Position numbers and translations under genes: made by a program. A stretch of DNA of 64,000 bases, taken from assembly GCA_964016885.1 (NCBI GenBank), contig OZ024740.1, positions 78,244,001-78,308,000 of the forward strand, read 5' to 3'. The stretch comes from Eledone cirrhosa. Its lineage: Eukaryota. This document shows, piece after piece, positions 8,688 through 62,660 of the stretch; position 1 is the stretch's first letter, and each line of letters opens with the position of its first letter. Under the pieces are notes generated by a model that worked only from the letters and a program-made list of their open reading frames with translations, was not told the origin of the DNA and searched no databases.

Positions 8688-8962
8688 AATCAAAGTTGTA
8701 TTTAATTTGTTGGTAGTCCGACAAACATAAATGTTTATAACTAATTTAGAGCACTCAACAAGTTACTGGAGTAAATATTCCATGATATTAAATAAATGGA
8801 AACTATATTTATAAAACCATATTTATTATATTATATATATTTCAAGGGCAACCAAGACAACATTGGTGCGCTTTAATCAAATAAAATACAAAGTTTGTTT
8901 TATAAATAGAGACGTACGTACCCTTGAAAATTCTACCTTATCGGTTGGAAATTCACTGGATA

Positions 8963-10889: not shown

Positions 10890-10937
<48 letters not shown>

Positions 10938-11006
10938 TATATATATATATATTATTCAAAATGTTAACAAATGAAAAATATTCTCATAATCAAAACATGT
11001 ACTTTA

Positions 11007-11161
11007 TTGTTTTTTCAGTACATCCTCATCAGACAAAATATATGATATACCGCTATGGTCTTGATTATTCAATTCCAGTATTGCCAATACTGGAATTGAA
11101 TAATCAAGACCATAGCGGTATATCATATATTTTGTCTGATGAGGATGTACTGAAAAAACAA
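11007..11161. repeat. Perfect 155-bp palindrome (77-bp arms, 1-nt centre), same family as 62334-62605
   Basis: Arms read as exact reverse complements around C11084. CTGATGA is present on both strands. Confidence 0.9.
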
Positions 11162-11189
11162 CACAGTACCTTTGAAATACACACGCACG

Positions 11190-11279
<90 letters not shown>

Positions 11280-11789
11280 TGCACGCACGCACGCACACGC
11301 ACACACACGCGCACACACACCAGGGCAATGCTGCTGTCTGTTGATCTACTGTTTGTGTCTCCTCCAGTTAACTTAGTGATAATTTGGAAGTGTGGTGTGG
11401 ATGCTTGTGTGTTCTGTATTGGAGGGCGTGTGTGTATATTTTCATCGGTGAGCCTTAGCTTTATTTGTGTGTGGAACTATATGCATAATAACTATTGTGT
11501 GCGTAGTTTTTTTCATACTTTTATTGGCTTCAGTAATTATACTGGGGCGCCACCTTGATTTAGTTGATCATACTAATTCTAGAACTTATTTTATTGATCT
11601 GTTTGTCAAACTGCTAAGTTATGGGGGCACAAACATTTTATATATATATTATATTATTTATGTTCATACACGGACACAAAAGCACTACCTAAGGTTTCAA
11701 GGCACGATATTGACCAAAACTGTAAGAGGGATCAAAATTGTGACCTATCTTCACGAGATGTTATACACATATATATAAAGACAGACACA

Positions 11790-16928: not shown

Positions 16929-16965
16929 TTTTCTGATGAAGGACTAGCGTCCGAAACGTTAAGAC
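16929..16965 (+). ncRNA. Minimal hammerhead-like motif (PLE type)
   Basis: CTGATGA-A-GGAC-TAGC-GTCC-GAAACGTT with palindromic stem III. A homologous copy lies on - at 39821-39852. Confidence 0.65.
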
Positions 16966-21755: not shown

Positions 21756-22091
21756 TCATCATCGTTTCATTTTATGTCCACTTTTCCCTGCTTGCAAGGG
21801 TGGGACGAGAACTGATTCTGGCTTGATTTCTACAGCTGGATGCCCTTCCTAACACCAACCTCATTTACTGTGAGTGCTGGGTGCTTTTTTGCCGTGGCAC
21901 CTCCACGACCACTTTGCAGTGGAATGATAGGGACTCCAGTCCTTTCATCTCATTTCTACAGCTGAGTAAACTGGAGCAATGTGAAATAAAGTGTCTTGCT
22001 CAAGGAAACAACACATCACCCGGTCTGAGAATTGAACTCACAACCTTTTGATTGCAAGCCCAATGCTCTAACCACTAAGCCATGTGCCTCC
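21756..22091 (-). mobile_element. SINE family A, full length
   Basis: Reverse complement of 32498-32835, with a (GAT)n tail. Confidence 0.88.
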
Positions 22092-35228: not shown

Positions 35229-35566
35229 GGAGGCACATGGCTTAGTGGTTAGAGCATTGGCTTTGCAATCGAAATGTTATGAGTTCAATTCTCAGGCCAG
35301 GTGATGTGTTGTTTCTTTGAGCAAGACACTTTATTTCGCATTGCTCCAGTTTACTCAGCTGTAGAAATGAGATGATAGGGCTGAGTCCCTATCACTCCAC
35401 TGTAAAGTGGACGTGTAGGCGCCACGGAAAAAAAGCACCCAGCGCTCACTGTAAATGAGGTTGGTGTTAGGAAGGGCATCCAGCTGTAGAAATCAAGCCA
35501 GAATCAGTTCCCATCCCACCCTTGCAAGCAGGGAAAAGCGGACGTAAAATGATGATGATGATGATG
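35229..35566 (+). mobile_element. SINE family A, full length
   Basis: Same architecture as 32498-32835. Confidence 0.88.
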
Positions 35567-39982: not shown

Positions 39983-40024
<42 letters not shown>

Positions 40025-40028
<4 letters not shown>

Positions 40029-40380
40029 TAATAAAAATAATGAATAAAAACAAAGAAACAGTTCCTTATATTAAAAAATTCATCATTTTACGATCGTTTC
40101 TAGGATATATATGTGTGTGTTGGTATGTATATCATATAGATCTATGTAAAATTTTTACAAACTATCATAGGGAATATACATACCTACACATTATTTCTGA
40201 AGACAGCATATATATGTGTAGGTATGTATATTCCCTCTGATAGTTTGTAAAAATTTTACATAGATCTATATGATATACATACCAACACAAACATATATAT
40301 CCTAGAAACGATCGTAAAATGATGAATTTTTTAATATAAGGAACTGCTTCTTTGTTTTTATTCATCATTTTTATTAATTT
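40025..40380. repeat. Fold-back element, 167-bp arms, 22-nt loop
   Basis: 40025-40191 vs 40214-40380, about 4 mismatches. Confidence 0.92.
40189..40324 (+). ncRNA. Type-I hammerhead-like fold with ~100-nt stem II
   Basis: Stem I CATTATTT/AAATGATG, core CTGAAGA (40197-40203), long stem II, GAAAC-GATC-GTA with palindromic ACGATCGT. The base of stem II is mismatched. Confidence 0.55.
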
Positions 40381-41195
40381 ATCTTGACTCTGTTTTCCTG
40401 TGTTTTTCATCTAAAATAATTTTTGAATACATCTTCTCTTTTCATGATATTCGGATTACATTGAGTTCTTCATACGGATTGGACACTACCGTACATTTTG
40501 GTAGATTTATCTATATATATATATATATATACATATATGTATATATAGACATATATATATAGGTATATATAGACATATATATATAGGTATATATAGACAT
40601 ATACATGCATATATATATATGCTCACAAACTTCTTTGTAAGAATAAATGCTTTATGGTCTGGTTCTTAAACTTTATTGGTGACAAATAATTAACCAGATT
40701 GTTCAAGATGTTTATGCCTGTACATACATATATATATATATATGTGTGTGTGTGTACATACACATATGTATGTGTGTTTGTGTGTGTGTCAGTGTATTTG
40801 TATCAATTTCAGTTTATATTTGATATATGCACACCTGTACACTGTTGTTCGTTAACTGTCTCACCTGAGATAATTATACATATTGTTTAGTAGGGCATCT
40901 CTCTCTCTCTGAAATTTTTTTCATTAAAATAATTTCTATATTTTGTTCTTATTTTTATCTTTATTCCGTTTCATTGTTTTCATTTTTCTTTATTTCACTG
41001 ACCCTTCATTCTTTATATAAACATATATATATACACACACACATACATATATATATATAAATAATACATACATAAATATATATTATATATATATATATTT
41101 ACACACACATACACACACACACACATATATATATTGTTATATTCAATATTTCCATTTTCTGACTCCTTCATCCTTTCTTTCATGACCATGTTTCT

Positions 41196-41338: not shown

Positions 41339-41443
41339 ATATTTTACTTTAGCAGTACAAATACTAAAATTGGAACAATGCAGAGAAGATTAGCATGGCC
41401 TCTACGCAAGGAGGATACACAAATTCATAAAGTGTTCCATATT
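41339..41443 (+). pseudogene. U6: U6 snRNA pseudogene
   Basis: ATACTAAAATTGGAACAATGCAGAGAAGATTAGCATGGCC..CGCAAGGA..CAAATTC..GTTCCATATT follows U6 end to end. ACAGAGA box mutated to GCAGAGA, CpG-type decay, no oligo-T terminator. Confidence 0.9.
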
Positions 41444-43121
41444 ACAAATTGTGGTGCCCTAGCATGGCTTCAGCCTGTCTGTCGGCTGGAACATGTAATA
41501 GAGAATAGGCTGCCTTTAAAATGGCTGGTTTCATTCCATAAAAACCAGAAGCAGTTTGAGGACGGGTGTATAAACAGATTTTATACATGTTGAATTGTTT
41601 TGCTAAATAAAAATATGTATAAGTATGTTGAGAACTACCATTTTTGTTCATGAGAAACTGATGTTTCATTATGATGAATAAAATAAGTTGCTACATTGCC
41701 ACAATCAGAAGATCATCATCATTGTTTAACGTCTATTTTCCACACTAGCATGGGTTAGATGAGTTGTCCCATTTGAGGCAAGTCAAGCCAGGTGACTGTC
41801 TTGCTCACACAGAACTATTTCTGGCTTGGTTTCTACAGATGGATGCCTTTTCTAACACCAACCACATTTACAGTGTGGGTTAGGTGCCTTTTATCGTGGC
41901 ACCAAAACGACCACTTTGCAGGGGGGGGGGGGTAAAGTGCAGGAGAAGGGTTGGGGTGATTAGGATGTGGGTGGCGTGTGGAAGGGGGAGTGAGGGTGTG
42001 GGTTAAGTGGTGCATACTATATGTATGCTTAAAGAAAATGTGTTGCAGTATTTAGTTACAGCCCTTTACATTCTTACTTCAAATCCTATAACGGTTGACT
42101 TAGCTTTTCATCCTTTCAGGGTCAGTAAAATACCATTCAGGAACTTGCATTCAGTTTTAACCCTTTTGATACCAAATTGCCTGAAATTGCTTTGGATTTA
42201 TGATGCAAAACTGTTCATATTAAAATATTTCTCCTTACATAAAAACTTTCCGTTATAATTTTATTTTGCAAGTTTTTTTGTTTTTTTTAGTAATGTTCTA
42301 AATATCAGCTTACTAATGAAAAACTTTTTGTATATATTTGTATATAAGCCAAGAAATTTGTGACAAAAAATTTGATGATAAAATGGAGGCAGCTTATATT
42401 CGAGGTCATTTACCAATTTTATATTTTACGTAAATGAAGTGCTAAAATATTTTCACTTTGGAGGTGGAACTTCTATTGTTTTTATGTTTTTAAATGAATA
42501 TAGCTTTCAAAATGTCAGAAATTGGTTAAAAAAACCCAAAAAAAAACATTGCATAATGGAACCATGAAACAAAAACTATACTCTAAATCAACCATGTCAA
42601 ACTGAGGGTCCTCCAAGGGTCACGTGTTGTTTGAGGGCCACACATGACAACTAATTGCCCACATTACAACTAATTTTTAATTTTATATTGCGAAGATAAA
42701 GCATGCTAGCGCTGTAAAAACATTTGTGCAAGCCGCAGGTGTGCTTGTAAAGGGTTCCGGGTCACATGTTTGACACTTAAAACATTTTAATTATCAAAAT
42801 ATTAAAACTTCATGAATATATTCTCCACTCAAAACTGTGTCATCTAAACATAATGTCTTTGGATTTTTAACCTATTTCTCAGATATTAAATAAGGGGTTG
42901 CCTTATATTTGAGTATATACAGTAATGGTATTATTAAATTACTCCTAATTTTTAGTTACTTTCAAAATTGATTGAAACACATGTATTTCATTAGAAATAT
43001 GGTAATGAAAGGATTAATCAACTATATACACTACCAAATGTCTGAAAACCCTTGTATCTGTGTTAGATATCAATGACTTTTTCTGACTCTTATCATAATG
43101 GAAATAAGAATATTGATAATA

Positions 43122-45999: not shown

Positions 46000-46648
46000 T
46001 ATATTGTTTTTATCTTATTCATGACTATATTTCTAAAAGATTCTAAAAGATGCTGAACGTTCAAATACTAAAGAAGTTCACTTGGAAATCATTTTTTTTC
46101 CTTATTTGATCCCATTTCATGGCATCTTGGGCAAGTTTCATTTACAATAGCTACTGGTCAATCCATGCTATGTGATTGGAAACTAGATAGACAGAAACCG
46201 GAAACCTGTCTGATGGACTATATCTATATTTCAAAAGGCTAGCCTTGTCATACACTGTGTCTGAGAATTACATTGAGCATACACGTTTGTTTGATTTTCA
46301 GTCACTTACACGTTAATTTCATGAATAGGCTGTTCCATTAATCAAACAACTAGAATACTCATCATCAAAACCAACGTGGCTCCATTCTATATATAACGTC
46401 TAAAGGAAAAAACACACTTATGTGAAATTCTAGACAGTTGCTAGATACTTCCTCTGCAATAGAAACATCTATTAATTCTATAGGTATGTCGTTTTTATAC
46501 TATTCATGACTATATTACAAATGAACATATTGTCAAATATTTCTAATGAAATAAACTGACAGTTTGATTTTTTTTTTTAATAATCAAGAATTTGAAAATA
46601 TTTTCTAAAATATCTAGATATTTCACCATTAACCTGAGGTTGTGACCT

Positions 46649-49600
46649 ACAGATAGTATTGGCAATGGAAAGACTAATAAAAACATAGTTTCTTTGGTCT
46701 GATCAGCAGATAGTATTGGCAATGGAAAGACTAATAAAAACATAGTTTCCTTGGTCTGATCAGCAGATAGTATCTGCAATGGAAAGACCAATAAAAATAT
46801 AGTTTCCTTGGTCTGATCAGCAGATAGTATCTGCAAGGGAAAGACCAATAAAAGCATAGTTTCTTTGGTCTGATCAGCAGATAGTATCTGCAATGGAAAG
46901 ACCAATAAAAGCATAGTTTCTTTGGTCTGATCAGCAGATAGTATCTGCAATGGAAAGACCAATAAAAACATAGTTTCCTTGGTCTGATCAGCAGATAGTA
47001 TCTGCAATGGAAAGACCAATAAAAAATATAGTTTTTTTGGTCTGATCAGCAGATAGTATCTGCAATGGAAAGACCAATAAAAGCATAGTTTCTTTGGTCT
47101 GATCAGCAGATAGTATCTGCAATGGAAAGACCAATAAAAACATAGTTTCCTTGGTCTGATCAGCAGATAGTATCTGCAATGGAAAGACCAATAAAAGCAT
47201 AGTTTCTTTGGTCTGATCAGCAGATAGTATCTGCAATGGAAAGACCAATAAAAGCATAGTTTCTTTGGTCTGATCAGCAGATAGTATCTGCAATGGAAAG
47301 ACCAATAAAAATATAGTTTCCTTGGTCTGATCAGCAGATAGTATCTGCAATGGAAAGACCAATAAAAGCATAGTTTCTTTGGTCTGATCAGCAGATAGTA
47401 TCTGCAATGGAAAGACCAATAAAAATATAGTTTCTTTGGTCTGATCAGCAGATAGTATCTGCAATGGAAAGACCAATAAAAGCATAGTTTCTTTGGTCTG
47501 ATCAGCAGATAGTATCTGCAATGGAAAGACCAATAAAAGCATAGTTTCTTTGGTCTGATCAGCAGATAGTATCTGCAATGGAAAGACCAATAAAAGCATA
47601 GTTTCTTTGGTCTGATCAGCAGATAGTATCTGCAATGGAAAGACCAATAAAAAATATAGTTTCTTTGGTCTGATCAGCAGATAGTATCTGCAATGGAAAG
47701 ACCAATAAAAAATATAGTTTCTTTGGTCTGATCAGCAGATAGTATCTGCAATGGAAAGACCAATAAAAATATAGTTTCTTTGGTCTGATCAGCAGATAGT
47801 ATCTGCAATGGAAAGACCAATAAAAGCATAGTTTCTTTGGTCTGATCAGCAGATAGTATCTGCAATGGAAAGACCAATAAAAGCATAGTTTCTTTGGTCT
47901 GATCAGCAGATAGTATCTGCAATGGAAAGACCAATAAAAGCATAGTTTCTTTGGTCTGATCAGCAGATAGTATCTGCAATGGAAAGACCAATAAAAGCAT
48001 AGTTTCTTTGGTCTGATCAGCAGATAGTATCTGCAATGGAAAGACCAATAAAAGCATAGTTTCTTTGGTCTGATCAGCAGATAGTATCTGCAATGGAAAG
48101 ACCAATAAAAGCATAGTTTCTTTGGTCTGATCAGCAGATAGTATCTGCAATGGAAAGACCAATAAAAATATAGTTTCTTTGGTCTGATCAGCAGATAGTA
48201 TCTGCAATGGAAAGACCAATAAAAGCATAGTTTCTTTGGTCTGATCAGCAGATAGTATCTGCAATGGAAAGACCAATAAAAGCATAGTTTCTTTGGTCTG
48301 ATCAGCAGATAGTATCTGCAATGGAAAGACCAATAAAAATATAGTTTCTTTGGTCTGATCAGCAGATAGTATCTGCAATGGAAAGACCAATAAAAGCATA
48401 GTTTCTTTGGTCTGATCAGCAGATAGTATCTGCAATGGAAAGACCAATAAAAATATAGTTTCTTTGGTCTGATCAGCAGATAGTATCTGCAATGGAAAGA
48501 CCAATAAAACCATAGTTTCTTTGGTCTGATCAGCAGATAGTATCTGCAATGGAAAGACCAATAAAAATATAGTTTCTTTGGTCTGATCAGCAGATAGTAT
48601 CTGCAATGGAAAGACCAATAAAAGCATAGTTTCTTTGGTCTGATCAGCAGATAGTATCTGCAATGGAAAGACAAATAAAAGCATAGTTTCTTTGGTCTGA
48701 TCAGCAGATAGTATCTGCAATGGAAAGACCAATAAAAAAAATAGTTTCTTTGGTCTGATCAGCAGATAGTATCTGCAATGGAAAGACCAATAAAAGCATA
48801 GTTTCTTTGGTCTGATCAGCAGATAGTATCTGCAATGGAAAGACCAATAAAAATATAGTTTCTTTGGTCTGATCAGCAGATAGTATCTGCAATGGAAAGA
48901 CCAATAAAAGCATAGTTTCTTTGGTCTGATCAGCAGATAGTATCTGCAATGGAAAGACCAATAAAAATATAGTTTCTTTGGTCTGATCAGCAGATAGTAT
49001 CTGCAATGGAAAGACCAATAAAAGCATAGTTTCTTTGGTCTGATCAGCAGATAGTATCTGCAATGGAAAGACCAATAAAAATATAGTTTCTTTGGTCTGA
49101 TCAGCAGATAGTATCTGCAATGGAAAGACCAATAAAAGCATAGTTTCTTTGGTCTGATCAGCAGATAGTATCTGCAATGGAAAGACCAATAAAAGCATAG
49201 TTTCCTTGGTCTGATCAGCAGATAGTATCTGCAATGGAAAGACCAATAAAAGCATAGTTTCTTTGGTCTGATCAGCAGATAGTATCTGCAATGGAAAGAC
49301 CAATAAAAGCATAGTTTCTTTGGTCTGATCAGCAGATAGTATCTGCAATGGAAAGACCAATAAAAATATAGTTTCTTTGGTCTGATCAGCAGATAGTATC
49401 TGCAATGGAAAGACCAATAAAAGCATAGTTTCTTTGGTCTGATCAGCAGATAGTATCTGCAATGGAAAGACCAATAAAAGCATAGTTTCTTTGGTCTGAT
49501 CAGCAGATAGTATCTGCAATGGAAAGACCAATAAAAATATAGTTTCTTTGGTCTGATCAGCAGATAGTATCTGCAATGGAAAGACCAATAAAAGCATAGT

Positions 49601-50864
49601 TTCTTTGGTCTGATCAGCAGATAGTATCTGCAATGGAAAGACCAATAAAAATATAGTTTCTTTGGTCTGATCAGCAGATAGTATCTGCAATGGAAAGACC
49701 AATAAAAGCATAGTTTCTTTGGTCTGATCAGCAGATAGTATCTGCAATGGAAAGACCAATAAAAGCATAGTTTCTTTGGTCTGATCAGCAGATAGTATCT
49801 GCAATGGAAAGACCAATAAAAGCATAGTTTCTTTGGTCTGATCAGCAGATAGTATCTGCAATGGAAAGACCAATAAAAGCATAGTTTCTTTGGTCTGATC
49901 AGCAGATAGTATCTGCAATGGAAAGACCAATAAAAGCATAGTTTCTTTGGTCTGATCAGCAGATAGTATCTGCAATGGAAAGACCAATAAAAGCATAGTT
50001 TCTTTGGTCTGATCAGCAGATAGTATCTGCAATGGAAAGACCAATAAAAATATAGTTTCTTTGGTCTGATCAGCAGATAGTATCTGCAATGGAAAGACCA
50101 ATAAAAGCATAGTTTCTTTGGTCTGATCAGCAGATAGTATCTGCAATGGAAAGACCAATAAAAATATAGTTTCTTTGGTCTGATCAGCAGATAGTATCTG
50201 CAATGGAAAGACCAATAAAAGCATAGTTTCTTTGGTCTGATCAGCAGATAGTATCTGCAATGGAAAGACCAATAAAAGCATAGTTTCTTTGGTCTGATCA
50301 GCAGATAGTATCTGCAATGGAAAGACCAATAAAAGCATAGTTTCTTTGGTCTGATCAGCAGATAGTATCTGCAATGGAAAGACCAATAAAAGCATAGTTT
50401 CTTTGGTCTGATCAGCAGATAGTATCTGCAATGGAAAGACCAATAAAAATATAGTTTCTTTGGTCTGATCAGCAGATAGTATCTGCAATGGAAAGACCAA
50501 TAAAAGCATAGTTTCTTTGGTCTGATCAGCAGATAGTATCTGCAATGGAAAGACCAATAAAAATATAGTTTCTTTGGTCTGATCAGCAGATAGTATCTGC
50601 AATGGAAAGACCAATAAAAGCATAGTTTCTTTGGTCTGATCAGCAGATAGTATCTGCAATAGAAAGACCAATAAAAGCATAGTTTCTTTGGTCTGATCAG
50701 CAGATAGTATCTGCAATGGAAAGACCAATAAAAGCATAGTTTCTTTGGTCTGATCAGCAGATAGTATCTGCAATGGAAAGACCAATAAAAGCATAGTTTC
50801 TTTGGTCTGATCAGCAGATAGTATCTGCAATGGAAAGACCAATAAAAGCATAGTTTCTTTGGTC
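46649..50864. repeat. 57-bp satellite, about 74 copies
   Basis: Unit GGTCTGATCAGCAGATAGTATCTGCAATGGAAAGACCAATAAAAGCATAGTTTCTTT. AAGCAT/AAATAT/AAACAT variants, a few 58-bp units, degenerate edges. Confidence 0.98.
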
Positions 50865-51562
50865 CAATTTAACAATCTGCAAATAGTATCTGAAATGGAA
50901 AGACAAATGGAAACATACTTGGTCCAATCTGATAATTGGCTCTGTCCCTTCTTCTTTTTAATAGAAGGTGTAGGCGCTTTTGTGGCTGTGTTTAGGGTTC
51001 ATTCCCACTGCATGGCACTCATGGGTAAATGTCTTTAGCTATAGCCCCGAGGTGATTACTGCCTTGTAAGTGAAATGTGGTAGATGGGTGACTTTGTGGA
51101 AGCCTGTTGTGTGTGTTTGTCTATGCCTACTTTCATAACACTGTTAATAATAGGTTGTTGCATAAAATTATTATTGAAATGTTTATATGACAAGATTAAC
51201 TTTCGAAAGGAAGAAAAAATTTATATTTAGAGAATGGATATCTAATAGCAACTCTATATCATATTTTTAACAAAGTTCTGGAAATTTTGAACTTGCAGAC
51301 ATGTAAGCTGCAAACCACCGATGTCATTAATATCTAGTAACTATATCAGCTACTCCTACTTTATGGTCTAATAGTTAGGAAAGGTAGCTTAGCTGGTGTC
51401 TTATGTGTAATTATTCTAAATTTGCTGAAATAATAACCAACTAATGCTAATAATGGGGAAGAGAAAAAGAGAGTATTTACTTTAATATCTGCCTTAACCC
51501 TTCTCATGCCAAACCACACATGGTCCTATGATACAAATCTGTTTATTTTAATGTTTATATTT

Positions 51563-52010
51563 GAAGGCGCATGGCTTAGTGGTTAGAGCATTGGGCTTGC
51601 AATCGAAAGGTTGTGAGTTCAATTCACGGACCGGGTGATGTGTTGTTTCCTTGAGCAAGACACTTTATTTCCCATTGCTCCAGTTTACTTAACTGTAGAA
51701 ATGAGATAAAAGGACTGGGGTCCCTATCATTCCACTGCAAAGTGGTCGTGGAGGTGCCACGACAAAAAAGCACCCAGCCCACACTGTAAAGTGGACGTGT
51801 AGGCGCCACGGAAAAAAAGCACCCAGCACTCACCGTAAATAAGGTTGGTGTTAGGAAGGGCATCCAGCTGTAGAAATCAAGCCAGAATCAGTTCCTGTAT
51901 GAGCAAGACAAGGTCGGCCAACTGGACACTGCCCACAACAGGACAACCCATCTAACCCATGCTAGCCTGGAAGAACGGACGTAAAACGGTGATGATGATG
52001 ATGATGGTGA
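51563..52010 (+). mobile_element. SINE family A, longer variant with an internal ~48-bp duplication and a different tail
   Basis: Two tandem AAAGTGG..GCCACG..AAAAAGCACCCAG blocks. Tail CTAACCCATGCTAGC..(GAT)n. Confidence 0.85.
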
Positions 52011-58939: not shown

Positions 58940-59218
58940 TTATTAAAATAACAGATTAAAGTTTAAGCAAAGAATCGCTGCTTTCAACGGGATCTTCTGA
59001 AACTAACAAAGTCAATCAGTAAACGCAGACCTGGATATTTCAAAAAACGTTGCAACCGGAGGAAGACAGGAAGACGATACTTTGGTTCGTGGAAACGTTC
59101 GCTGGCAAAGAACGGGAAAGAACGAATAATACGTCATTAATAGGAGCGGTGAAAAACAATTACGCGCAAAGACAGAACCACGTTTATGGTATAAAAGAGG
59201 TCATAGACTAATGTTCTC

Positions 59219-60784
59219 TTCAACCCCTCTATTCGGCTTATTAACCCTACGAAGTCCGATTTAGGTAGACTTAGTAAAACGATTCTTGATAGAATTATAC
59301 CTGAAATTAGAAGTTTGGCCCCTCTTGCACTGTGGAACAATTCTTTCGCGGTGATTGATTGGTTCAACGGCATATGTAACAAGGAACATTGCCGCTTTAT
59401 CCAATTCGACATCAACAATTACTACTCCTCCATCACTTTACCACTTCTCCTTAGAGCTATCAATTTCGCTAAAACACTCACAGTGGTTAAAGATTTCGAA
59501 GTTGATGTCATCCTCAATGCCCGAAAGTCGGTGATTAATTTCGACGACTCTATTTGGATTAAAAAATCCAATAGTACCCCATTCGACGTGAGTATGGGTG
59601 CCAGTGACTCTGCGGAGGTTACTGATCTTATTGGCCTTTTCCTTCTTTTCTCTATCAAGGACGAATCTCCCAACGCGGGCGGTGGTTTGTACCGTGACGA
59701 TGGTCTTTTGACCATGACTAAGTGCGGACCTCGTGCTTGCGACAGGCTCAGAAAAGAACTCACAGCCTTCTTTAAAGGCTTCAACCTCTCTATACAGGTT
59801 GAAGCCAATCTCTCGGTCGTTAATTACCTCGACGTTACCCTCAATTTATTGAATGGGTTGTATTATCCGTATAGAAAACCGAATGATACGCTTAATTACA
59901 TAAGTAAGCATTCCAACCATCCTGCCAGCATAACCAAGAACCTGGTAAGAAACGTTTCGTTGAGGCTTTCCCATCTTTCCACCAACGAGCATATTTTCAA
60001 CGACCATTCCACTTATTTCAATGAAGCTCTTGCTCGAAGTGGATTTGTCGATAAGGTAGCATATACAGAGTACGAAAATAGACCTAGAAGTAATAGATCC
60101 CGTCGCATTTGTTGGTATAACCCACCATATAATATGGAGGTGGCCACACCTTTAGCTAAGATCTTTCTTTCCCTTATTACGAAGCATTTTCTCCCTACAC
60201 ATAAATATAGTAAAATTTTTAATAGAAATACTATTAAAATTTCTTATTCTACGACTCCTAACCTTGCACATAACATCACAGCTTCAAATTTAGCTAAACT
60301 ACCTAGCCGTAGGAACACGTGCAACCCAGTAGTTAGTACTAACTGTAATTGTAGGAATCGGGCTGATTGGCCCCTATCCGGGAAATGCCTCTCTAGTAAC
60401 ATTGTCTACAAATGTAAGGTTGTAACACCCACGTCCCGTAGGGCCTACATAGGGTTAACCGCCAATAGTTTCAAGCAGCGTCTTTACATGCATACCCATT
60501 CTTTTCGTTACCCTCTAAGAAGGAATATGACGTCACTTTCAGCTTATATCTGGAGTCTAAAAGACAACCACACCCAATATAAGTTACACTGGGAGATCCT
60601 AGCTAGGGCTAGATCGTATAACGGAAATAAAAGACCATGTGACCTCTGTGCCGCTGAGACCCGGGAAATACTCTACGCCACAGACCACATCTTAAACAAA
60701 AAATCTGAGGCAATTTCGGCTTGTAAACATAAATTGCACAAAACTTTCCTGTATTACAGCCCCACGTTATACCCTAACGGATAG
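59219..60784 (+). CDS. PLE reverse transcriptase / GIY-YIG endonuclease ORF (N-terminally truncated, no ATG)
   Basis: Motifs RLINPTKSDLGRLSK, FIQFDINNYYSSI, MGASDSAEV, LYRDDGL, NYLDVTL, YRKP, SNHP, WYNPPY, CNCR, IVYKC..YIGLT..FKQR, CDLC..E, LNKKSE. The frame stays open back to the pLTR junction. Confidence 0.92.
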   Translation, partial: FNPSIRLINPTKSDLGRLSKTILDRIIPEIRSLAPLALWNNSFAVIDWFNGICNKEHCRFIQFDINNYYSSITLPLLLRAINFAKTLTVVKDFEVDVILNARKSVINFDDSIWIKKSNSTPFDVSMGASDSAEVTDLIGLFLLFSIKDESPNAGGGLYRDDGLLTMTKCGPRACDRLRKELTAFFKGFNLSIQVEANLSVVNYLDVTLNLLNGLYYPYRKPNDTLNYISKHSNHPASITKNLVRNVSLRLSHLSTNEHIFNDHSTYFNEALARSGFVDKVAYTEYENRPRSNRSRRICWYNPPYNMEVATPLAKIFLSLITKHFLPTHKYSKIFNRNTIKISYSTTPNLAHNITASNLAKLPSRRNTCNPVVSTNCNCRNRADWPLSGKCLSSNIVYKCKVVTPTSRRAYIGLTANSFKQRLYMHTHSFRYPLRRNMTSLSAYIWSLKDNHTQYKLHWEILARARSYNGNKRPCDLCAAETREILYATDHILNKKSEAISACKHKLHKTFLYYSPTLYPNG

Positions 60785-61711
60785 TACGATCTATACGTGG
60801 ATATTTTACGTCTTGATGTGGGAGCTAAGTATATGTTTTGTTTATTCCTTTACTTATTTGCATAGGTAAGTATATATTACCCGTATGTTTTGTGAAGGTA
60901 CATATACCTTCTCGTACGTATATTTGATTGTTATGGCGTATAATTTTATATATTCCGGTACATATGGTTTGGCTATGTGTATACGGGAGTTTTGCGTCTG
61001 TGTGAGTATGCAGGTTCGTACGTATTGTGGGTGTGTGTATATGCGTACTTCATGTTTTAGTTGACTTACGTCTCCGAACATTCGTGTATTTATATGTGGG
61101 TATGTGTGTGCGCTTGTTATATACGTATTTATTTATTTATATACGTTTATATAATTATTTATTTATTTGTATACACGCATACACACACACACATATTTAT
61201 ATGGGCGTGGTTTTGTATACCTATGGTAAGTTTTTGCGTATGCTTGTGTATGTACGTATTTGTTTACGTGTATGTATTTATTTATTTCTATTACTTCTGT
61301 ATTGTATTTATTTACTTTGTTCTTAACTCTGTAGCGGAGATTCATTTGGTCTCCTAGTTAGAATTTTAGTCTACGACTTCTGCTATGCCATTTACGTGGT
61401 TGTGTCTTTGCGTGCTATTGTTCTCCACGCTCCACATATGACGTATTATCTTCGTTTTTTCGTTCATTGCCAGAGAACGTCTCTATGCACCACCTAAGAG
61501 AACATTAGTCTATGACCTCTTTTATACCATAAACGTGGTTCTGTCTTTGCGCGTAATTGTTTTTCACCGCTCCTATTTATGACGTATTATTCGTTCTTTC
61601 CCATTCTTTGCCAGCGAACGTTTCCACGAACCAAAGTATCGTCTTCCTGTCTTCCTCCGGTTGCAACGTTTTTTGAAATATCCAGCTCTGCGTTTACAGA
61701 TTGACTTTGTT

Positions 61712-61762
61712 AGTTTCAGAAGATCCCGTTAAGGGTGAAAGCAGCGATTCTTTGCTTAAACT
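61712..61762 (+). ncRNA. Hammerhead-ribozyme-like motif in the PLE pLTR (variant core CAGAAGA)
   Basis: Stem I AGTTT/AAACT, stem II CCC-GTTAA-GGG, GAAA, stem III AGCAG/TTGCT, predicted cleavage after 61757. Hammerheads in PLE pLTRs are established. Confidence 0.65.
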
Positions 61763-61869
61763 TTAATCTGTTATTTTAATAAGTATTTGCTCTATGGTAC
61801 TTATATATTTGATATATATTTATCCTTATCGAGCCCTCTTTGGATTTTAGTCTTCAAATTTATTATTAT

Positions 61870-62239: not shown

Positions 62240-62333
62240 ACCAGATTAATATGGTTCGTTGATTAATCAACGAATACAGTTTTACAATAGATTAGAAGCA
62301 CTCGACAGTAGATTTTCTTGGACTATTTAATAT

Positions 62334-62605
62334 TATTCAAAATGTTAATAAATGAAAAATATTCTCATAATCAAAATATATATTTTATTATACATATTTC
62401 AAAGGTACAATGGTGTTTAAGTACGTTTTCATCAGACTGCCAATACTGGAATTGAATAATCAAAACCGTAGCGGTATGTCACATATCAAATCTTATATTT
62501 TGTCTGATGAAAACGTACTTAAACACCATTGTACCTTTGAAATATGTATAATAAAATATATATTTTGATTATGAGAGTATTTTTCATTTATTAACATTTT
62601 GAATA
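62334..62605. repeat. Fold-back element, 104-bp arms, 64-nt spacer
   Basis: 62334-62437 vs 62502-62605, one mismatch seen. A diverged single-arm relative lies at about 8684-8870. Confidence 0.9.
62494..62560 (+). ncRNA. Type-I hammerhead-like motif inside a fold-back element
   Basis: TATATTTTGT-CTGATGA-AAACGTAC..GTACCTTT-GAAA-TATGTA-TA-ATAAAATATA, with a 10-bp stem I. Confidence 0.65.
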
Positions 62606-62660
62606 TAATATATATAACAGAAAAAAGAGAATCAGTGTTGCGACGAAAGGAATTTATTGG

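What the first reader, a model, noticed from the sequence alone, without database searches (positions are those of the whole stretch)
10951..11180. Perfect 155-bp palindrome turning at the same sequence as its relative 51 kb away
This copy and 62334-62605 belong to one family. In both, the + arm starts at TGCCAATACTGGAATTGAATAATC, but the inverted arm is complete here (1-nt loop) and shorter at 62 kb (64-nt spacer). A fixed turning point implies a defined RNA/cDNA end followed by fold-back or template-switch synthesis. This is the same geometry as the inverted pLTR of the coding PLE. Stem II varies between copies (GTACTG/CAGTAC vs GTAC/GTAC) but still pairs. Inference: these MITE-looking hairpins are retro-transposed, ribozyme-bearing mini-PLEs rather than DNA transposons.
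Basis: partly seen in the sequence, partly recalled or inferred. Interest (0 to 1): 0.75.

Follow-up and report, generated by a model that had tools for sequence, protein, structure and literature searches.

The report
Head-to-head Penelope retrotransposon front ends
The palindrome is real and is two head-to-head copies of the front end of a common, protein-coding Penelope-type jumping gene, likely made when two reverse transcriptions both ran off the start of the element's RNA and their ends paired, so it is a known kind of insertion and likely a dead stub, not a new mini-element.

Summary
The 77+1+77 palindrome (11007-11161) and its relative at 62 kb are confirmed. Both are the pseudo-LTR (pLTR) of a coding Hydra-clade Penelope-like element; copies with pLTR, tail and a broken RT/GIY-YIG ORF exist elsewhere in the genome. 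It is not a MITE: 39 of 43 head-to-head pairs have one arm with a 95-nt tail and one without, none has two tails. The turning point is a strong hotspot, not a fixed point: 50 of 99 arms start within 17 nt of one base, and 20 of 34 arms reaching that base stop on it. It looks like the capped transcript start (an untemplated G precedes it in 36 of 100 copies; control 0 of 12). The window's exact centre occurs at 13 loci; among those fetched, both subfamilies have it. Simple fold-back cannot put the tail on the shorter arm; twin priming with pairing of the two cDNA ends likely explains the 1-nt loop. Neither arm at 11 kb keeps a whole hammerhead. Reads were inconclusive. The architecture is in print, and this scan noted twin-primed start-site palindromes before on other DNA of this genome.

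The parts
10951..11083 (-). Left arm: untailed pLTR copy, read from about transcript position +3 to the untailed 3' end; hammerhead first core half CTGATGA at 11026-11032; 25-nt deletion removes the 3' side of stem II, GAAA and the cleavage site
   Evidence: (L056)
11007..11161 (.). Perfect 155-bp palindrome, 77+1+77
11080..11088 (.). Junction nonamer ATTG-C-CAAT; central base 11084 is the 1-nt loop; same centre at 13 genomic loci
11082..11179 (+). Right arm: pLTR copy from +3; CTGATGA 11136-11142, stem II, GAAA 11174-11177; cut off before the cleavage site and the 3' strand of stem I; likely the tailed arm before its 3' part was lost (inferred)
10897..10950 (.). Left flank: (TA)n/(GT)n/(TA)n microsatellite target
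11180..11320 (.). Right flank: (CA)n-type microsatellite
62241..62437 (-). Relative, subfamily B: tailed arm starting 2 nt before CTGATGA (62429-62435); tail at about 62241-62331, then (TA)n
   Evidence: (L057)
62436..62609 (+). Relative, subfamily B: untailed arm starting at +1 (A62436; 2-nt microhomology AC with the other arm); whole minimal type I hammerhead motif 62493-62561, predicted cleavage after 62550
58941..61782 (+). Neighbouring coding PLE of a different Hydra-like family (525-residue open frame 59207-60781, inverted terminal arms 58986-59220 / 61496-61730); same geometry, not the source of the palindrome

Best explanation
The palindrome is a head-to-head pair of pLTR copies of a coding Hydra-clade Penelope-like element in a microsatellite, likely laid down when both cut target strands primed reverse transcription at the element's two internal start sites and both cDNAs ran off the capped 5' end of the RNA. 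Shown: family identity, two fixed 3' ends about 175 and 270 nt downstream of one base (+1), one tail per pair, a pile-up of 5' ends at +1, an untemplated G before +1. Inferred: +1 is the Pol II start (TCA+1CTG); because both priming sites lie upstream of the ORF's ATG (+328), priming on a pLTR-started mRNA gives short run-off cDNAs; the first nine bases (ACTGCCAAT) are quasi-palindromic, so two cDNA 3' ends can pair antiparallel around a central G-G mismatch, prime on each other and join the arms. Loss of the two wobble-paired end bases on both strands would give ATTG[G/C]CAAT, the window's perfect centre, the 1-nt loop being the resolved mismatch. Later deletions broke both hammerheads at 11 kb; the stub is likely inert.
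For: Family: 1169 exact hits of a 27-mer. L064 joins RT and GIY-YIG frames to this sequence at its 3' end, with a 1.43-kb inverted arm; L161-L163 show pLTR+tail running into the ORF; ATG at +328 in L163. Hydra motifs RW[RH], DKT, CxCx5C, CxxC-E in the natural frames. 3' ends of 99 arms: 63 untailed, 33 tailed, 3 other; 87 of 99 followed by TA runs. 43 pairs: 39 tailed+untailed, 0 doubly tailed; 5'-longer arm untailed in 19, tailed in 6, equal in 14. In L062, L120, L034, L098, L051 the tailed arm starts within about 30 nt of, or beyond, the other arm's 3' end. 5' ends: 20 of 34 arms reaching +1 stop there against 0.004 per base further downstream. Base before +1 in A/T flanks: G 36, T 30, A 18, C 16 of 100 listed (of 101, counted by hand); the template base is C in 24 of 24 read-through copies; control 0 G of 12, Fisher p 0.009. 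Centre variants at 33 loci: 13 perfect, 17 keeping one intact +1 end, 3 other; of 8 fetched asymmetric centres the intact +1 is on the tailed arm in 3 and the untailed arm in 5. Predicted duplex of two cDNA ends in this register, -5.2 kcal/mol. In vitro, an Anolis PLE cuts and extends both strands and starts RT at two internal sites that bound the tail (PMC11167929, parts 1-2 read).
Against: No RNA data: +1 as start site rests on sequence and the G only. 35 of 99 arms start downstream of +17 and 14 upstream of +1, so run-off is not the only route. Both arms were of one subfamily in 27 of 27 pairs, which fits one RNA or one strand copied twice as well as two RNAs from separate bursts. The 11 kb copy has lost its outer right end, so its own tail status is inferred. 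Its arms share three substitutions and a 12-nt deletion; the exact 33-mer spanning the deletion and one of the substitutions was found only at this locus, which allows later arm-to-arm correction or a secondary fold-back here. The predicted duplex is weak. The G control is small (n=12).
Confidence: 0.7

Rival explanations
1. Single-strand fold-back: one cDNA reaches the RNA 5' end, snaps back on a GGC triloop and copies itself.
For: The same register can form within one strand (3-bp stem, 3-nt loop; sequence). Arms are of one subfamily in 27 of 27 pairs. Tailed arm is the 5'-longer one in 6 of 39 pairs and equal in 14. PMC3846280 (passages) reads junction palindromes as self-priming. The window's arms share private changes.
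Against: A folded-back arm cannot hold sequence the first strand lacks, yet in 19 of 39 pairs the tail is on the 5'-shorter arm, and in 5 of 8 asymmetric centres the intact +1 is on the untailed arm. No such hairpin in the DNA fold of the cDNA end.
Confidence: 0.15
2. A self-propagating non-autonomous mini-PLE: short pLTR or palindromic stubs are transcribed from their internal promoter and re-copied in trans.
For: Short copies far outnumber long ones (85 of 99 arms start at or after +1). The Drosophila Penelope 3' pLTR can drive transcription (PMC2377424, passages). pLTRs can mobilise unrelated DNA in trans in a rotifer (PMC3846280, passages).
Against: Junctions differ from locus to locus; the perfect centre occurs in both subfamilies (3 A, 4 B of 7 fetched), so it forms anew. 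Stubs stop at the priming sites and lack the downstream sequence that the Anolis enzyme needs (PMC11167929). Short copies are expected directly from coding mRNA. Only 16 shared rare differences against 214 unshared in 39 pairs.
Confidence: 0.1
3. MITE (DNA transposon derivative with terminal inverted repeats and a TA target).
For: Short, inverted arms, fixed outer ends, TA flanks, over a thousand copies.
Against: Ends are asymmetric in 39 of 43 pairs; many arms have no partner; interior junctions vary; the sequence is the terminal repeat of an RT-coding element; untemplated G at the inner end.
Confidence: 0.02
4. Assembly artefact (a read folding back on itself).
For: No laid record spanned the centre with 31 letters on both sides.
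Against: Symmetry stops at private deletions and does not include the flanks; the same centre stands at 13 loci on several contigs; the one-sided tail is biological.
Confidence: 0.03

Closest known systems
Endonuclease-bearing Penelope-like elements with an inverted 5'-truncated pLTR and a one-sided tail (PMC8557442 passages and Fig. 2 legend; PMC3846280 passages)
   Same: Head-to-head inverted copy, tail at one end only, palindrome at the junction, Inr-like TCACT in the pLTR, microsatellite targets, no discernible TSD.
   Different: Tail is about 95 nt here against 30-40 nt in print; most insertions are pLTR-only; the junction is explained there by self-priming or left open.
Hydra clade of PLEs (PMC8557442 section 11; supplement lists Hydra-1_Obim, 2507 bp)
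   Same: RW[K/R], DKT, CxCx5C linker, C-terminal GIY-YIG, CxxC near the conserved E, hammerhead, (TA)n targets.
   Different: Unit is about 3.85 kb with a 1.4-kb 3' region against 'generally <3 kb'. Identity with Hydra-1_Obim was not tested; no tree was built.
Minimal type I hammerheads of PLE pLTRs (PMC4209133, part 1 read)
   Same: CUGAUGA / GAAA / UH core, 2-bp stem III with an AU-rich short loop, long stem II; that paper already reports dual min-HHRs 100-700 bp apart on opposite strands tied to truncated PLEs.
   Different: Stem I is 11 bp here against 4-5 bp; both copies at 11 kb are broken.
PAc (Poseidon of Anolis) in vitro (PMC11167929, parts 1-2 read)
   Same: Both target strands cut and extended, two internal RT start sites bounding the tail, AT-rich targets, hammerhead cleavage not needed.
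   Different: Different clade; its start sites lie inside the ORF, here upstream of the ATG; the parts read do not show how inverted copies are joined.
LINE-1 twin priming and cap-derived untemplated G (PMC4859970, PMC3287187, passages)
   Same: Two primers from one break; G at full-length 5' ends (about 33% of SVA insertions there, 36% here).
   Different: L1 inversions do not duplicate the 3' end; here both arms usually cover the same 170 nt.

Membership tests
EN+ Penelope-like element | Single ORF with PLE-type RT and GIY-YIG endonuclease linked to this repeat | tested here: met
   L064, L161-L163 carry both domains in broken frames between copies of the repeat; not in the window copy itself
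EN+ Penelope-like element | pLTR from partial tandems, tail equal to the sequence following the 5' pLTR | tested here: met
   L126, L128, L130: pLTR+tail continues into the 5' region and ORF; L162 has it at both ends
EN+ Penelope-like element | Inverted 5'-truncated copy with tail on one end only | tested here: met
   39 of 43 pairs
EN+ Penelope-like element | Hammerhead motif in the pLTR | tested here: met
   Of 118 arms picked for an intact core, 104 pair 10-11 of 11 stem I positions and 115 have UA at the cleavage site; met for the family and the 62 kb + arm, not for either 11 kb arm
EN+ Penelope-like element | Hammerhead structure supported by covariation | tested here: inconclusive
   91.4% cells paired, three G-U/A-U swaps between subfamilies, but 156 of 500 shuffles reach the covariation score; no hammerhead family among the 150 of 155 Rfam matches listed
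EN+ Penelope-like element | Self-cleavage and retrotransposition activity | not testable with these tools
   Needs RNA or in vitro assay
Hydra clade | RWK-type motif, DKT, CxCx5C linker, CxxC by the conserved E, no CCHH cysteine pair in GIY-YIG | tested here: met
   Motif scan of L161-L163: RWR/RWH, SDKT, CxCx5C (2 of 3), CNLCNLE, one Cys between VYK and YIG
Hydra clade | (TA)n insertion | tested here: met
   87 of 99 arms followed by a TA run
Hydra clade | Generally under 3 kb (a tendency in the paper, not a diagnostic) | tested here: not met
   Unit about 3.85 kb from L162 coordinates
Hydra clade | Placement in the RT phylogeny | not tested
   No reference proteins in hand; no tree built
MITE | Symmetric terminal inverted repeats | tested here: not met
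   0 of 43 pairs doubly tailed, 2 doubly untailed
MITE | Consistent target-site duplication | tested here: inconclusive
   Flanks printed are TA runs on both sides; a TA duplication cannot be told from the run
Non-LTR retrozyme / non-autonomous PLE derivative | Tandem units each with a whole type I hammerhead (bioRxiv 10.64898/2026.07.22.740005, part 1 read) | tested here: not met
   Copies are solo or head-to-head; 11 kb arms are broken
Non-LTR retrozyme / non-autonomous PLE derivative | Amplification of the short form from short sources | tested here: inconclusive
   No shared junction-plus-haplotype lineages seen in the sample; all copies not examined

The most novel reading that the evidence does not exclude
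These stubs are frozen Penelope transposition intermediates: twin-primed, cap-terminated run-off cDNAs whose 3' ends pair through a self-complementary first nine bases of the transcript, and the four ways of resolving that 9-bp heteroduplex are all readable in the genome (13 perfect, 17 one-sided, 3 mixed of 33). That would be a base-level mechanism for the inverted pLTR, directly testable in the existing in vitro PLE system.
Probability: 0.5. Interest if true: 0.6.

Novelty: new member of a known kind. Interest (0 to 1): 0.33.

Why it matters
As an object it is ordinary: one decayed insertion among more than a thousand, of an architecture described for PLEs, which pipelines can mislabel as a MITE or a microRNA hairpin. 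Its value is as evidence: how PLEs make inverted pLTRs is stated as open in PMC8557442 and PMC11167929, and this family gives counts (start-site pile-up, cap-like G, one tail per pair, centre variants) that favour twin priming with end pairing over self-priming and say which bases to change in an assay.

Tried and rejected
Rfam at E up to 5: no hammerhead among the 150 of 155 matches listed; the MIR2646 match (79 bits, cut-off 245) is just the hairpin. Pfam found nothing for the neighbouring PLE frame. Hammerhead cleavage site as turning point: rejected; 8 of 99 arms start in the 25 nt around it, the background rate. Cleavage site as a 3' end (which the 11 kb right arm resembles): only 4 exact genomic matches of that end followed by a TA/CA run, so a later deletion is preferred. 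General arm-to-arm correction: rejected, 214 unshared against 16 shared rare differences in 39 pairs. Neighbouring coding PLE as master: rejected; 39-47% protein identity to L064 and no DNA match of its pLTR. Reads: no RNA holder listed; contigs and RAD reads laid on both copies gave no record bridging a centre with 31 letters on both sides (one had 58 and 23 at the 62 kb junction), so neither support nor refutation. Literature: 'Penelope'+'twin priming' gave 3 papers, none on PLE mechanism by title or abstract start (listing only); the palindrome/self-priming/snap-back/strong-stop/octopus search gave 3, one relevant; subscription papers are not in the library, so absence from print is not shown. 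A direct protein comparison failed on frame and was not repeated.

Full report
Observation. The window reads like a microsatellite-rich animal genome; G000 has 3.0 Gb. An exact scan finds arms of 77 nt around one base, 11007-11161. BLAST links it to 62.3-62.6 kb and weakly to 8791-8848. At 62 kb the arms are 104 nt with 64 nt between.

Family. A 27-mer from the arm has 1169 exact matches. I took the first 100 listed (all on C1), dropped one locus with duplicate flanks (L094) and mapped 99 arms on a natural copy, L064. L064 holds RT and GIY-YIG frames, a 1.4-kb 3' region ending in this repeat, and a 1.43-kb inverted arm. The RT stretch has 40 scored copies at 90-100%. In L126, L128 and L130 the repeat lies upstream of the ORF and continues through a 95-nt tail into it; L162 has it at both ends, L163 has an inverted copy in front. 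So the repeat is the pLTR of a coding element. The natural frames, all broken, carry RW[RH], DKT, CxCx5C and CxxC-E, the Hydra features in PMC8557442 section 11. The coding PLE in the window is a relative at 39-47% protein identity with no DNA match in its pLTR.

Outer ends. 63 of 99 arms end at one site, 33 end 95 nt further, 3 elsewhere; 87 of 99 run into TA repeats. Of 43 adjacent head-to-head pairs, 39 have one tailed and one untailed arm, 2 are both untailed, 2 are irregular (one is the window copy), none is doubly tailed (long-armed pairs such as L063 and L064 fell outside the filter). This is the inverted pLTR with a one-sided tail described in PMC8557442 and PMC3846280 (passages) and excludes a MITE. 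No target duplication can be read in TA runs.

Inner ends. 50 of 99 arms start within 17 nt of one A (+1), 14 start upstream, 35 downstream (five alignments that ran 7 nt into TA flank were set back to +1). 20 of 34 arms that reach +1 stop on it, against 0.004 per base over the 110 nt further down. The context is TCA+1CTG, initiator-like (consensus recalled; PMC3846280 names TCACT in a rotifer pLTR). The base before +1 is C in 24 of 24 read-through copies, but G in 36 of 100 copies with A/T flanks (T 30, A 18, C 16, counted by hand), and in 0 of 12 arms that start elsewhere (p 0.009). Untemplated G at full-length 5' ends is attributed to copying of the cap (PMC3287187, PMC4859970 passages). 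Drosophila Penelope has an internal promoter in its pLTR (PMC2377424 passages). I infer that +1 is the capped start. In L163 the core lies at +69, the two 3' ends near +179 and +275, the ATG at +328: priming at those sites on a pLTR-started mRNA gives exactly these stubs, with no need for a mini-element. No RNA run was listed, so this step is untested.

The junction. A pattern for the palindrome's centre finds 33 loci: 13 with the window's perfect centre, 17 with one intact +1 end, 3 mixed. Of 7 perfect centres fetched, 3 are subfamily A and 4 subfamily B, so the centre forms repeatedly. Fold-back of one cDNA needs the tail on the arm that reaches furthest 5'. Instead the untailed arm is 5'-longer in 19 of 39 pairs, the tailed in 6, equal in 14; in five pairs the tailed arm barely overlaps the other; and the intact +1 lies on the untailed arm in 5 of 8 asymmetric centres. 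An Anolis PLE in vitro extends both cut strands and starts RT at two internal sites bounding the tail (PMC11167929 parts 1-2). Two cDNAs ending at +1 both end in ATTGGCAGT, which pairs with itself antiparallel around a G-G mismatch (predicted -5.2 kcal/mol). Keeping either strand gives the 17; losing the wobble ends on both gives the 13, with the mismatch as the 1-nt loop. This step is inference. Against it: arms were of one subfamily in 27 of 27 pairs, and the window's arms share three substitutions and a 12-nt deletion, an exact 33-mer over that deletion being found only here, so local correction or a secondary fold-back is possible for this copy, though arms in general drift apart independently. 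At 62 kb the + arm starts at +1 and joins the tailed arm through a 2-nt microhomology.

Hammerhead. The family motif fits a minimal type I hammerhead: 11-bp stem I, CUGAUGA, stem II with one C-C mismatch, GAAA, 2-bp stem III, UA cleavage site (compare PMC4209133 part 1, which already reports opposite-strand pairs from truncated PLEs). The 118 arms counted were picked for an intact core. Subfamilies differ by three G-U/A-U swaps and two distal pairs; covariation does not beat shuffles. The free fold of subfamily A prefers another hairpin. At 11 kb the left arm lacks GAAA and the right arm stops before the cleavage site, so neither can cleave as a whole motif; the 62 kb + arm is whole. The cleavage site is not a breakpoint hotspot.

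Reads. Asymmetric private deletions and recurrence at 13 loci make an assembly artefact unlikely.

Prior notes and verdict. My reading (PLE, start site, cap G) was filed; notes there reach twin-primed start-site palindromes on other DNA of this genome and call the host an octopus, which I did not test. They are unchecked and are not counted as support. Verdict: a known kind of PLE insertion, a likely inert stub; modest interest for the junction statistics.

Noticed in passing
window 58941-61782: Coding Hydra-like PLE of another family with inverted terminal arms; its pLTR has CAGAAGA (61717-61723) where the hammerhead core CUGANGA is expected, followed by a short stem and GAAA, a possible core variant
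   Followed up: partly
window 16933-16956 +: Compact hammerhead-like motif (CTGATGA, 4-bp stem II, GAAAC) of an unrelated repeat, probably another PLE end
   Followed up: no
window 8791-8848: Fragment about 77% like the 3' part of this pLTR, starting near GAAA; likely a sister family
   Followed up: partly
window 41344-41446 +: U6 snRNA match, 82.9 bits, with several changes; likely a retroposed pseudogene
   Followed up: no
window 46508-51000: 57-bp tandem array of about 75 copies with long open frames on the - strand
   Followed up: no
window 40023-40382: Another inverted repeat, 169-nt arms at 98%, 22 nt apart; possibly the same kind of stub from another family
   Followed up: no
window 22025-22082, 35232-35299, 51572-51627: tRNA-like heads in dispersed 160-290 nt repeats, likely SINEs
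   Followed up: no
L064 minus strand 2565-2650: A third, short inverted segment at the junction of the long insertion, suggesting more than one template switch
   Followed up: no
G000 matches: About a third of the G-preceded starts read TT-G rather than AT-G after the TA run, hinting at a second added base or a fixed annealing phase
   Followed up: no
L126/L161 and L128/L162 about 2400-2700 of the 3.5-kb loci: Asparagine-rich stretch between RT and endonuclease, like the N-rich inserts reported in rotifer PLEs (PMC3846280 passage)
   Followed up: no
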